7,174 nucleotides of DNA from a virus (taxonomy: Duplodnaviria; Heunggongvirae; Uroviricota; Caudoviricetes): IMG/VR virus record IMGVR_UViG_3300028453_000023. One strand, 5' to 3'. The first letter of the stretch is position 1. Each line of letters opens with the position of its first letter. This document shows, piece after piece, positions 1,819 to 3,756 of the stretch. The translations under genes and the position numbers were made by a program. Below the pieces are notes generated by a model. That model did no database searches and was not told the DNA's origin. It worked only from the letters and a program-made list of their open reading frames with translations.

Positions 1819-3756
1819 TCAGCCGCCGGACGCACTGCCATAGTTCACTCCGGTGATCACCGCCACCGCCGCGGTACGGCGACGACGCCAGTTGATCCAG
1901 CGCTCCGCACGGATGGCCACGCTGCCTGTCTGGAACATGGAAACCAGCTCCACCGGCGACGGCGTGGTACTGTCGCCGGTCGGCTCAGACTGCATTTCCA
2001 GTGATGCCTCGCGGGACATATCCACTGCCACGCCGCCGTCATCCGCCAGATAAATATCCGGGGCATTCACCAGCACCAGCTGGTCACCCACGTACTGGGA
2101 GACAATCACCGGCAGCCCCTGGAAGGAGCCACCCAGCAGGGTCATGTCCGGGTATTCTTTCTGACCCAGCGCATTTTTACGCATGGACAGCGCCAGAGCA
2201 TTGGTGCTGGACATCAGCCAGACCGCACCGGTGGGCTGCAGGTTTGCTGCCACAAACTGTCCAAACGCCGCCTCTGCATCCGCATCCGGGTTACCGCTTG
2301 ATGCCGTGCCCTTCACATCATGGGTGATGGACGCCGGGGAGACATCTGCCACCGCCGCTTTTTTCGGGTCCACAAAGTCTGTATCCAGACGCGCCACCAC
2401 CGCTTCCGCCAGCGCATTACGGACCAGTGCATCAGCAGCCGGACTGGAAAAACGGATCAATTCTTCCGTCAGTACCGCAATGGCCGACACCTTAGCATGA
2501 CTGAAGGTGATGGATTCAAAATCAAACTTCGTCAGGGGTTTTGCCTTACCCTCACCCACCCAGCCGGCAGCACCGCCCGACACCTGGGCGTGCACACGGA
2601 TATTGAACGGCACCTGACGAAGTGCAGGGATCCCGCCCTGACCAAATCGCCCGATAATGGTCTGAGGACGCAGGTAATCAATAAAGTCCTGTGCGTATTC
2701 CTGATATTCAGACAGGCTGCCTGCCCACTGCGGATCCGTGGTGGTCCCCGCGCCCACTGCCGATTTCAGGACATGATGCAGACGACTGTCATCCGGATAC
2801 TGACGACGGGCCACTTCCAGGGCTTCAGAGCGGACACCTTTAGCCGCAGCCAGCGATTTGGCAAAACGTGCGAAACCAATCCCCTTATCCAGTTTCTGCT
2901 CCACACGGATCACCGGCGCAGAAGCCACCGCGGCCACATTCCCGTTACCGGCCTGTTTCACCGGCTGCGCCGTGGCGGCCTTACCGGCTTCCAGTTCACG
3001 CAGGCGCTTCAGGTGCGCATCCACCTGACGTATTTCCGCTGCGGTGTTGTCGTAATGCTCTTCCTCCTCCACATCCAGCGTGCGCCCTTCCTCTGCGGCT
3101 TTGGTCATGACCTCCTCAAGGGAGGCTGCCAGTGCTGCACGCTTGTTTTCAAAACTTTTAATCTGTTCGCCAATATTCATTATGGTCTTTTCCTTATGAA
3201 AAACGGTTGTTGACTGTGCCGCAGCGCCGGCAGAAGATGCGATTTTCACCACCGGTTTCCGGTTGCCGGACGCGGCAGAAAACTGGCGGTCGTAAGATTT
3301 AATGGTCCGGATGGTGCATTCCGCATTCGCGGGCACGGTGACGGCAGACACCTCCATCAGCTCCCAGCGCAGAAAATGCAGTCCGCCTCCGTCCAGAAAG
3401 GTGTATTCATGAGGACGGAAGCCCACGGACAGCCCCCTGACCAGCCCGGTCTTAATGGCCGCCCAGGCCTCATCCAGCCTGGCAGCCAGTTGCGATGGCA
3501 TATCCGGCACGGGCTTCGCCAGTGTTGCCGTGATTTCCAGCCCTTCGCTGACCCGGCGCACCGTACACTGCCCCACCGGGCGGGAATGGTCATGCTGCCA
3601 GAGAAACGGAATCGCACTGCCAAACTCCGCGCCCTCCGGCTCCAGGATGTCACCATCCCGATCCGGAGAAGGCGTTGACGCAATCCCGGTGATCACCCGC
3701 TCATCCTCACTGAAGGATTTCACCGTCAGCAGGGAGCAGGCCCGTTTAAGAGTCAC
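1819..3756 (-). CDS. Prohead protease (HK97 / peptidase S78 type) fused in frame to an HK97-fold major capsid protein with a coiled-coil delta/scaffold-like segment
   Basis: 645-codon ORF with a GTG start at 3754-3756 and AGGAGG 5 nt upstream. The N-terminal ~190 aa carry prohead-protease blocks (ITGIASTPSPDRDGDILEPEGAEF, FLWQHDHSRPVG, GLSVGF). From residue 193 (MNIGEQIKSFENKRAALAASLEEV...) the sequence is a charged coiled-coil followed by ~380 aa typical of HK97-type capsid proteins. Follows the terminase genes. Confidence 0.9.
   Translation of the reverse strand: MTLKRACSLLTVKSFSEDERVITGIASTPSPDRDGDILEPEGAEFGSAIPFLWQHDHSRPVGQCTVRRVSEGLEITATLAKPVPDMPSQLAARLDEAWAAIKTGLVRGLSVGFRPHEYTFLDGGGLHFLRWELMEVSAVTVPANAECTIRTIKSYDRQFSAASGNRKPVVKIASSAGAAAQSTTVFHKEKTIMNIGEQIKSFENKRAALAASLEEVMTKAAEEGRTLDVEEEEHYDNTAAEIRQVDAHLKRLRELEAGKAATAQPVKQAGNGNVAAVASAPVIRVEQKLDKGIGFARFAKSLAAAKGVRSEALEVARRQYPDDSRLHHVLKSAVGAGTTTDPQWAGSLSEYQEYAQDFIDYLRPQTIIGRFGQGGIPALRQVPFNIRVHAQVSGGAAGWVGEGKAKPLTKFDFESITFSHAKVSAIAVLTEELIRFSSPAADALVRNALAEAVVARLDTDFVDPKKAAVADVSPASITHDVKGTASSGNPDADAEAAFGQFVAANLQPTGAVWLMSSTNALALSMRKNALGQKEYPDMTLLGGSFQGLPVIVSQYVGDQLVLVNAPDIYLADDGGVAVDMSREASLEMQSEPTGDSTTPSPVELVSMFQTGSVAIRAERWINWRRRRTAAVAVITGVNYGSASGG

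What the first reader, a model, noticed from the sequence alone, without database searches (positions are those of the whole stretch)
1819..3756. Prohead protease and major capsid protein encoded as one ORF, with an internal RBS and ATG at the capsid boundary
A single 645-codon frame joins an S78/HK97-type protease domain (residues ~1-190) to a delta/scaffold-like coiled-coil and an HK97-fold capsid protein. At the boundary there is an in-frame ATG (3178-3180, codon 193, MNIGEQ...) preceded by AAGGA 10 nt upstream. This suggests two products: a low-abundance protease-capsid fusion that would be built into the procapsid, and abundant free capsid protein from internal initiation. Established analogues are lambda C/Nu3 and herpesvirus UL26/UL26.5 (protease-scaffold with a nested in-frame scaffold gene); here the nesting would extend to the capsid protein itself.
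Basis: partly seen in the sequence, partly recalled or inferred. Interest (0 to 1): 0.6.

Follow-up and report, generated by a model that had tools for sequence, protein, structure and literature searches.

The report
Capsid gene nested inside protease-capsid fusion
In this Shiga-toxin-phage head gene the maturation protease and the capsid protein are one reading frame, and comparison with hundreds of relatives indicates that a conserved internal start site also makes capsid protein on its own, which would set the protease-to-capsid ratio.

Summary
A 645-codon ORF lies on the minus strand (3756→1819). It joins an S78 prohead protease, a disordered linker, a delta-like helical hairpin and an HK97-fold capsid protein. 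An in-frame ATG sits at 3180-3178 (codon 193), with AAGGA 10 nt upstream.

The window is the head module of BP-4795-type Stx phages. The fusion is not an error: it is intact in 1,249 of 5,426 complete E. coli genomes and has been annotated as "major head protein/prohead protease".

What is new is the comparative support for the internal start:
- All 69 fused clusters (<70% identity) keep a start codon at the end of a hypervariable linker: 61 ATG, 7 GTG, 1 TTG.
- Its Shine-Dalgarno is as strong as that of the true gene start.
- The site lies in an AT-rich, unstructured patch.
- Synonymous variation is lowest in the gene just upstream.
- Split relatives start their capsid gene at exactly this codon.

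The best reading is a nested gene, as in lambda C/Nu3, whose short product is the capsid protein itself. No protein-level evidence exists. The unrelated Gifsy-2-type fusion shows the same signature.

The parts
1819..3756 (-). Full-length ORF, 645 aa, 69.0 kDa: S78 protease, linker, delta-like domain and HK97-fold capsid protein. GTG start at 3756-3754, stop codon at 1821-1819.
   Evidence: The same 1938-nt CDS is annotated in BP-4795 and JLK-2012.
3762..3767 (-). Shine-Dalgarno AGGAGG of the full-length product, 5 nt upstream of the GTG.
3301..3711 (-). Prohead serine protease domain (residues 16-152). Invariant His55 (3594-3592) and Ser110 (3429-3427).
   Evidence: Pfam PF04586, 34.1 bits against a cut-off of 21. 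pLDDT about 90. Invariant columns D32, H55, S110, E135, S137 in 40 diverse homologues.
3181..3300 (-). Disordered, hypervariable linker (residues 153-192). It carries the conserved AASG, VVKI and AGAAA motifs and the region of lowest synonymous variation.
   Evidence: pLDDT <50 for residues 153-192. Alignments. Synonymous diversity 0.06-0.23 against a gene mean of 0.51.
3217..3231 (-). Nucleotide-invariant element GCCGGCGCTGCGGCA (GCTGGCGCTACAGCA in other Enterobacterales). It could form a 4-bp hairpin, GCYG-N6-CRGC, with one compensatory change. Role unknown.
3191..3195 (-). Internal Shine-Dalgarno AAGGA, 10 nt upstream of the internal ATG.
   Evidence: An SD-like purine run is conserved in homologues.
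3178..3180 (-). Internal in-frame ATG, codon 193.
1819..3180 (-). Predicted nested product, 453 aa, 48.2 kDa: delta-like domain plus capsid protein without the protease.
   Evidence: TIGR01554 matches residues 12-392 of this product to profile positions 3-355. Stand-alone homologues start here.
2971..3174 (-). Delta or scaffold-like helical hairpin (helices 195-223 and 229-262).
   Evidence: AlphaFold pLDDT about 90. Profile positions 197-271 align to residues 4-76 of the 385-aa capsid protein of cf-PICI EcCI2, PDB 9gyi_B.
1822..2880 (-). HK97-fold capsid body (residues 293-645, 37.4 kDa).
   Evidence: Pfam PF05065. Foldseek hits to Bxb1, HK97 and D3 capsids, E 1e-15 to 1e-9.
3778..3795 (-). 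Terminator-like hairpin followed by a T-run, between terL and the capsid gene.
   Evidence: It is the only such site in 1500-4000, and shuffles give 2.2 on average, so it is not significant by itself.

Best explanation
This is a nested, two-product head-assembly gene.

Shown from sequence: ribosomes that start at the GTG (3756) make a 69-kDa chain of S78 protease, flexible linker, delta-like domain and HK97-fold capsid protein.

Inferred from conservation: ribosomes that start at the internal SD/ATG (3195/3180) make a 48-kDa delta-capsid protein without the protease.

Inferred by analogy with HK97 gp4/gp5 and lambda C/Nu3:
- Both chains carry the same delta domain and capsid body, so they co-assemble into capsomers and procapsids.
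- The delta domain points inward, so the few protease-bearing subunits place the protease inside the shell by a covalent tether rather than by a binding tail.
- After assembly the protease (His55/Ser110) removes the linker, the delta domains and itself. This leaves a mature capsid protein of about 37 kDa.
- The protease-to-capsid ratio is fixed by the relative strength of the two initiation sites.
For: Structure and identity:
- Domain architecture and a disordered linker that ends exactly at M193.
- The catalytic-type His and Ser are invariant in 40 diverse homologues.

The frame is genuinely open:
- 644-648 aa in thousands of Enterobacterales proteins.
- Fused in most of the 150 best 50%-identity cluster representatives.
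- Present in 1,249 complete E. coli genomes.

The internal start is conserved:
- 69 of 69 fused clusters (<70% identity, from 185 loci) have a start codon 5-12 codons before the conserved EQI helix: 61 ATG, 7 GTG, 1 TTG. No other Val, Leu or Ile codon occurs there.
- The chance that all 7 Val are GTG, given each gene's own Val codon usage, is 8e-4.
- The linker before the start is hypervariable in sequence and length.

The ribosome-binding site is conserved:
- SD duplex energy has a median of -7.0, against -2.2 for other in-frame start-type codons.
- It reaches -8 or lower in 41% of clusters, against 1% of background codons.
- It equals the SD of the real 5' start, -6.6 against -6.3.
- It is stronger than synonymous resamples of the same peptides, -7.5 against -5.6, Wilcoxon p = 4e-9.

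The site is accessible:
- In the window the stretch from -25 to +20 folds at -3.5 kcal/mol, against a gene median of -12.3, with 33% GC against 60%.
- It lies in the least-structured decile of its own gene in 39 of 69 clusters.

Synonymous constraint:
- The three lowest 9-codon windows of the whole gene are centred on residues 177, 160 and 192, within 100 nt upstream of the ATG.

Split relatives:
- Snodgrassella L027 and loci L097, L162, L179 and L186 start the capsid gene at this codon (MTIEEQI, MTTKTVGEQI, VKTITEQI).
- In four of the five the capsid gene is still in frame with the protease. In L097 the stop abuts the start (TAA-ATG).
- Each has a different fused nearest neighbour at 58-71% identity, which implies repeated stop-codon gains. 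Such gains are viable only if the internal site already worked.
Against: - No protein, ribosome-profiling or N-terminal data were available, so the short product is unobserved.
- The window's internal SD is modest (AAGGA, -6.2 kcal/mol, 10-nt spacing). The 5' site has AGGAGG at 5 nt, so the ratio of products cannot be read from the sequence.
- Much of the SD is encoded by the chosen amino acids (K/E/Q-E/G-G). Synonymous resamples still give -5.6, so a protein-level constraint, for example a cleavage motif, cannot be fully excluded.
- A second conserved "SD plus ATG" occurs at M588 in 42 of 69 clusters. There it is a by-product of the invariant SREASLxM motif, which shows that such patterns can arise from protein constraint alone.
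- The clusters are phylogenetically related, so the p-values are optimistic.
- Loci were retrieved with a fused query, which inflates the share of fused genes.
- All-fusion assembly is not physically impossible. By my own estimate, 415 subunits with about 35 kDa of internal mass each would fill less than half of a T=7 procapsid.
Confidence: 0.78

Rival explanations
1. Single polyprotein only. Every capsid subunit is made with its own protease and cuts itself free. The internal SD/ATG is a fossil of an ancestral two-gene arrangement, or is kept for protein-level reasons such as a hydrophobic residue at the start of the delta helix or a cleavage motif.
For: The fusion keeps a VVK[IL] motif that forms the C-terminal tail of split proteases. 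This is compatible with a recent fusion. Most of the SD signal is carried by the amino-acid choice. M588 shows that protein constraint can mimic an SD plus ATG. Published descriptions of protease-capsid fusions treat them as single products.
Against: A fossil should have decayed, because the linker around it is hypervariable with many indels. Yet 69 of 69 clusters, down to about 40% identity, keep a start codon. A merely hydrophobic position would accept Ile, Phe, CTN-Leu or GTH-Val, and none occurs. The distance of the start from the helix varies by 5-12 codons, which is unlike a structural residue. Codon choice, low RNA structure and synonymous constraint are nucleotide-level signals. Repeated conversion to split genes needs a working internal site.
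Confidence: 0.13
2. The SD-like run is a translational pause element that lets the protease domain fold before the capsid part emerges. The nearby Met is incidental.
For: The purine-rich SD-like sequence sits right after a folded domain and inside a disordered linker. Synonymous constraint extends 100 nt upstream, further than a ribosome-binding site needs.
Against: This does not explain why the next start-type codon is always present at 4-10 nt, restricted to ATG/GTG/TTG. It also does not explain why split relatives initiate there. SD-induced pausing is itself disputed (my own knowledge, not tested here).
Confidence: 0.05
3. Artefact: two genes were joined by a sequencing or assembly error, or this copy is a decaying prophage that lost its stop codon.
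For: The window contains a 100-N run (4440-4539) in terL, so the assembly is imperfect.
Against: The same 1938-nt open frame is found in independent phage genomes. A 90%-identity cluster holds 9,916 member sequences. The frame is present in 1,249 complete E. coli genomes and in relatives across Gamma- and Alphaproteobacteria.
Confidence: 0.01

Closest known systems
Phage lambda C / Nu3 (also HSV-1 UL26/UL26.5, phage Mu I/Z, archaeal virus HFTV1 gp17/gp17.5)
   Same: The protease lies at the N-terminus of a long product. An in-frame internal initiation site after the protease domain yields a shorter, protease-free assembly protein with the same C-terminus. The shared C-terminal part takes the protease into the procapsid (for HFTV1, lambda and HSV; the rest is my own knowledge).
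   Different: In those systems the nested product is a scaffold and the capsid protein is a separate gene. Here the nested product is the capsid protein with its own delta domain. The protease family also differs: S78 here, against S49/ClpP-like in lambda and S21 in herpesviruses.
Phage HK97 gp4 (protease) and gp5 (capsid protein with delta domain)
   Same: The protease family (Pfam S78), the capsid family (TIGR01554, PF05065), an N-terminal delta domain in place of a scaffold, and the gene order protease then capsid are all shared.
   Different: HK97 has a stop codon between the two genes, and its protease enters the prohead through a C-terminal binding tail. Here there is no stop codon. The portal gene lies after the capsid gene rather than before the protease.
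Salmonella phage Gifsy-2 tripartite capsid gene (Effantin et al. 2010, as cited in PMC12315714 and PMC8538268); NCBIfam NF045540
   Same: Protease, scaffold-like region and capsid protein are in one ORF of about 690 aa in a lambdoid prophage. It also carries a conserved GAGGA-N9-ATG just after the protease domain, where synonymous diversity is the lowest in the gene.
   Different: The protease is ClpP-like, not S78, and the capsid part is Mu gpT-like (PF10124). The window protein scores far below the NF045540 and NF045541 cut-offs. The two are independent fusions.
Pseudomonas phage MD8 gp5; Arthrobacter phage clusters AM/AU/AN; Rhodococcus phage RRH1
   Same: These are described in the literature as a single gene encoding both protease and major capsid protein.
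   Different: They belong to different sequence families. None of the papers read here mentions an internal start.

Membership tests
HK97-family major capsid protein (TIGR01554 / PF05065) | HMM score above the curated cut-off | tested here: met
   TIGR01554 scores 77.3 bits against 27.5. PF05065 scores 52.5 against 24.2.
HK97-family major capsid protein (TIGR01554 / PF05065) | HK97 fold of the C-terminal body | tested here: met
   The AlphaFold model (mean pLDDT 79) gives Foldseek hits to Bxb1, HK97, D3 and T5 capsids, E 5e-15 to 1e-9.
HK97-family major capsid protein (TIGR01554 / PF05065) | N-terminal delta domain that replaces a scaffold | tested here: met
   Helices 195-223 and 229-262 are predicted confidently. 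Profile positions 197-271 align to residues 4-76 of the cf-PICI EcCI2 capsid protein, 9gyi_B.
HK97-family major capsid protein (TIGR01554 / PF05065) | Lys-Asn isopeptide chainmail residues | not tested
   No residue-level alignment to HK97 K169/N356 was made.
S78 (HK97-type) prohead serine protease | HMM score above the curated cut-off | tested here: inconclusive
   Pfam PF04586 scores 34.1 bits against 21 and passes. NCBIfam TIGR01543 scores 46.6 against 59 and fails.
S78 (HK97-type) prohead serine protease | Conserved catalytic His and Ser | tested here: met
   H55 and S110 are invariant in 40 homologues of 37-53% identity. Their assignment as catalytic residues is by position, not by experiment.
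Nested in-frame protease / assembly-protein gene (lambda C/Nu3 type) | Protease domain only in the long product, followed by a shared C-terminal assembly part | tested here: met
Nested in-frame protease / assembly-protein gene (lambda C/Nu3 type) | In-frame internal start codon with its own ribosome-binding site at the domain boundary | tested here: met
   ATG at 3180 with AAGGA at 3195. Conserved in 69 of 69 fused clusters with an SD as strong as at real starts.
Nested in-frame protease / assembly-protein gene (lambda C/Nu3 type) | Both products are actually made | not testable with these tools
   This needs proteomics, toeprinting or initiation-site ribosome profiling.
Nested in-frame protease / assembly-protein gene (lambda C/Nu3 type) | The nested product is a scaffold distinct from the capsid protein | tested here: not met
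   The nested product contains the whole HK97-fold capsid protein. It is therefore a variant, not a member in the strict sense.
NCBIfam prohead protease/major capsid fusion families (NF045540 ClpP-like; NF045541) | HMM score above the curated cut-off | tested here: not met
   NF045541 scores 53.1 bits against 525. NF045540 gives no hit. Gifsy-2 scores 949.6 against 475.

The most novel reading that the evidence does not exclude
Internal initiation at the protease/capsid boundary may be a general, so far undescribed rule for protease-capsid fusion genes. On this reading, independent fusions all behave as nested genes. These include the S78-type here, the ClpP-type of Gifsy-2 and perhaps the actinophage types. 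Translation, not binding affinity, would then set how many proteases are built into each procapsid. Fused and split arrangements would interconvert by single stop-codon changes.
Probability: 0.5. Interest if true: 0.7.

Novelty: new variant of a known kind. Interest (0 to 1): 0.55.

Why it matters
Protease-capsid fusion genes pose an unresolved stoichiometry problem. A T=7 shell needs about 415 capsid subunits but far fewer proteases. A conserved nested start answers this with a mechanism that can be tested with two point mutations.

The gene is also very common. It is present in 23% of complete E. coli genomes, in up to 7 copies, and in the Stx1- and Stx2-converting phages of STEC. Genome annotation records a single product. 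If the short product is real, annotation pipelines miss the main capsid precursor in thousands of prophages.

The result also explains how fused and split arrangements can interconvert freely during phage evolution.

Tried and rejected
- **GTG start as a general device to weaken the long product.** Rejected. 59 of 68 clusters start the long ORF with ATG; GTG is particular to the Stx-phage group and a few others.
- **Conserved RNA structure upstream of the internal start.** RNAalifold on 22 sequences found only a 3-bp and a 4-bp hairpin, with one compensatory change. This is too little to claim a structure, so the nucleotide-invariant motifs remain unexplained.
- **Internal sigma-70 promoter.** None was found in 1500-4000.
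- **Sequence search of solved structures for the protease domain.** No hit; only capsid proteins matched.
- **Literature.** Eight searches and several papers gave no description of an internal start in any protease-capsid fusion, and no virion proteomics for BP-4795-type phages. The Effantin 2010 and Duda 2013 papers are not held, so their text could not be checked.
- **\"SD plus start\" scan as a stand-alone statistic.** A second peak at M588 (42 of 69 clusters) comes from an invariant protein motif. The scan therefore counts only together with the variability of the linker.
- **Locus L029.** The capsid gene lies upstream of the protease gene. I set it aside as a different arrangement.
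Full report
**1. What is in the window**

The window matches the head-gene region of long-tailed Stx-converting lambdoid phages at 95-98% identity. These include BP-4795, JLK-2012, 2851, YYZ-2008 and 1717 (genus Marienburgvirus).

All the genes below lie on the minus strand:
- HNH endonuclease (6199-5834).
- Small terminase (5545-4982).
- Large terminase (4985-3820), interrupted by a 100-N run at 4440-4539.
- The ORF in question (3756-1819).
- A 73-aa ORF (1774-1553).
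- A portal gene that runs off the left end of the window.

The portal therefore follows the capsid gene instead of preceding the protease.

**2. The observation**

The ORF has 645 codons (69.0 kDa). It starts with GTG preceded by AGGAGG at 5 nt. Pfam finds Peptidase_S78 at residues 48-153 and Phage_capsid at 386-635. NCBIfam finds the HK97 major capsid model TIGR01554.

An AlphaFold model built on 40 homologues gives five segments:
- A confident protease domain, residues 16-152.
- A disordered stretch, 153-192.
- Two long helices, 195-223 and 229-262.
- A second disordered stretch, 266-285.
- An HK97-fold body, 293-645.

The body matches the Bxb1, HK97 and D3 capsids. His55 and Ser110 are invariant in the 40 homologues.

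The in-frame ATG at 3180-3178 is codon 193, and AAGGA lies 10 nt upstream. Met193 therefore sits exactly where the disordered linker ends and the delta-like helix begins.

**3. The fusion is real and already annotated**

The same 1938-nt CDS is annotated in BP-4795 as "putative major head protein/prohead protease". A 90%-identity protein cluster holds 9,916 member sequences. Relatives of 644-648 aa occur in Salmonella, Enterobacter, Klebsiella, Serratia, Pantoea and others.

The gene is present in 1,252 of 5,426 complete E. coli genomes, in up to 7 copies, and PGAP calls it "phage major capsid protein". A search of 1.84 billion cluster representatives returned 12,339 hits. Most of the best 150 are fused proteins of 630-680 aa. 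A lost stop codon or an assembly error is excluded.

**4. Test of the internal start**

I collected 185 loci with DNA from genomes, viral contigs and metagenomes. They reduce to 167 distinct proteins and 73 clusters at 70% identity. Of these, 69 are fused and 4 are split by an in-frame stop.

*Start codon.* All 69 fused clusters have a start-type codon 5-12 codons before the conserved EQI motif: 61 ATG, 7 GTG and 1 TTG. All seven Val codons are GTG. The product of gene-specific GTG usage is 8e-4. No Ile, Phe, CTN-Leu or other Val codon occurs at this position. The preceding linker is hypervariable in sequence and length. The alignment of 150 cluster representatives shows the same picture at the protein level.

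*Shine-Dalgarno.* Four comparisons describe the SD at the junction:
- The duplex energy with the anti-SD has a median of -7.0 kcal/mol, against -2.2 for all other in-frame ATG/GTG/TTG codons.
- It is -5 or lower in 83% of clusters against 15% of background codons, and -8 or lower in 41% against 1%.
- It equals the SD of the true 5' start, -6.6 against -6.3.
- It is stronger than synonymous resamples of the same peptides, -7.5 against -5.6, p = 4e-9.

In Enterobacterales the motif is AAAGGAA. Its Gly codon is GGA, which is rare in E. coli (codon rarity from my own knowledge), in all 34 Enterobacterales sequences outside the Stx-phage group and L070, which have AAGGAA instead.

*Accessibility.* The window from -25 to +20 folds at -3.5 kcal/mol, against a gene median of -12.3. 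Its GC content is 33% against 60%. It lies in the least-structured decile of its own gene in 39 of 69 clusters, where about 7 would be expected.

*Synonymous constraint.* Among 38 Enterobacterales homologues the mean synonymous diversity is 0.51. The three lowest 9-codon windows of the entire gene are centred on residues 177 (0.06), 160 (0.16) and 192 (0.23). All three lie within 100 nt upstream of the internal ATG.

*Split relatives.*
- Snodgrassella prophages have separate protease (234 aa) and capsid (439 aa) genes, and the capsid gene starts MTIEEQI.
- L097 has TAA directly followed by ATG (MTTKTVGEQI).
- L162 has TAAGGA followed by GTG (VKTITEQI).
- L179 and L186 have spacers of 66 and 105 nt.
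- In these four the capsid gene is still in frame with the protease.
- Each has a different fused nearest neighbour, at 58-71% identity.
- Stand-alone capsid proteins among the representatives begin at query residues 193-196.

This pattern fits repeated stop-codon gains in a fused ancestor. Such gains can be tolerated only if the internal site already initiates.

**5. Caveats**

- Nothing here detects the short protein.
- Part of the SD signal is carried by the amino acids chosen (K/E/Q-E/G-G).
- A second "SD plus ATG" peak at M588 (42 of 69 clusters) arises from an invariant SREASLxM motif. It shows that protein constraint can imitate the pattern. The junction differs because its flanks are not conserved.
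- The clusters are related, so the statistics are optimistic.
- Retrieval with a fused query biases the fused-to-split ratio.
- Which product is more abundant cannot be read from the sequence.

**6. Mechanism**

The best-supported reading is a nested gene. A long protease-delta-capsid chain and a short delta-capsid chain co-assemble, because they share the delta domain and the capsid body. The long chains carry the protease into the shell by a covalent tether. The protease then removes the linker, the delta domains and itself, leaving a capsid protein of about 37 kDa.

The domain layout and the initiation signals are shown. Co-assembly, processing and stoichiometry are inferred by analogy with HK97 gp4/gp5 and lambda C/Nu3.

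**7. Comparison with what is known**

Protease-capsid fusions are described for Gifsy-2, Pseudomonas MD8 gp5 and several actinophage clusters. Nested protease/scaffold genes are known for lambda, HSV-1 and, recently, the archaeal virus HFTV1. None of the texts I could read reports an internal start in a protease-capsid fusion. Two key papers, Effantin 2010 and Duda 2013, are not held.

The window protein is not a member of NCBI's two curated fusion families: 53 bits against a cut-off of 525. It is best described as an HK97-type protease and capsid pair that lacks the intervening stop codon. It works like lambda C/Nu3, but with the capsid protein itself as the nested product. I rate it a new variant of a known kind.

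**8. Extension to Gifsy-2**

The unrelated Gifsy-2 gene (696 aa, ClpP-like protease) has an in-frame ATG at codon 221, just after the protease domain, with GAGGAG 9 nt upstream.

In 23 homologues GAGGA-N9-ATG is invariant at the nucleotide level, even where the second codon changes from Glu to Asp. The lowest synonymous-diversity window of that whole gene is centred on residue 217, at 0.23 against a mean of 0.53. That region is also conserved as protein, so the evidence is weaker than for the window gene. It does suggest that the nested-start solution is general.

Noticed in passing
L193:8472-10562 (Gifsy-2, NC_010393 22471-24561): The ClpP-type protease-scaffold-capsid fusion of Gifsy-2 has a conserved GAGGA-N9-ATG at codon 221, just after the protease domain. 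The lowest synonymous diversity of the whole gene lies there (0.23 against 0.53 in 23 homologues). This suggests a nested start in an independent fusion family.
   Followed up: partly
window 3217-3231 and 3265-3276 (minus strand; codons 176-180 and 161-164): Two short motifs in the otherwise variable linker are invariant at synonymous sites in 38 Enterobacterales homologues. They are GCTGGCGCTACAGCA (GCCGGCGCTGCGGCA here) and GCCGCGTC(A/C)GGC. The first can form a 4-bp hairpin with one compensatory T>C/A>G change. Their role is unknown; a standby site, a processing site or a recombination junction are possibilities.
   Followed up: partly
window 1-1622 (minus strand) relative to 1819-3756: The gene order is terL, then protease-capsid, then a 73-aa ORF, then portal. 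The portal gene follows the capsid gene instead of preceding the protease as in HK97. The portal frame is open from 1622 to the window edge, whereas BP-4795 and JLK-2012 annotate two ORFs there.
   Followed up: partly
window 3778-3795 (minus strand) plus T-run to about 3768: A terminator-like hairpin (GGACCGCtgcgGCGGTTT followed by TTTTATTTT) lies between terL and the capsid gene, 11 nt upstream of the AGGAGG. It could attenuate or stabilise the late transcript. One such site is no more than shuffles give.
   Followed up: no
window 4440-4539: A run of 100 N lies inside the large-terminase gene. Related phages span about 490 bp more between the same end points (7,667 against 7,174 bases), so sequence is masked or missing here and terL appears as two ORF fragments.
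   Followed up: no
window 3241-3252 (residues 169-172, VVKI); L097, L162, L179, L186, L027 protease C-termini: Split proteases end in a ...V-K-L-[L/I] motif. Fused proteins keep V-V-K-[I/L] inside the linker. It may be the capsid-targeting tail known from HK97 gp4, retained despite the covalent tether.
   Followed up: no
window 1993-2010 (minus strand, around codon 588): A GAGG-N11-ATG is conserved in 42 of 69 clusters. It is encoded by the invariant capsid motif SREASLxM. It is most likely a by-product of protein conservation, and it serves as a negative control for SD-plus-ATG scans.
   Followed up: yes
window 3753-3758 (minus strand): The GTG start overlaps an out-of-frame ATG-TGA mini-ORF (gATGTGAct). 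In most relatives the long ORF starts with ATG instead.
   Followed up: no
window 6181-6441 (+) and 6573-6914 (-): Two small accessory genes lie upstream of the packaging module: a DUF3950 / YlcI-YnfO family protein and a 113-aa TonB C-terminal-domain protein with a signal-like N-terminus.
   Followed up: no
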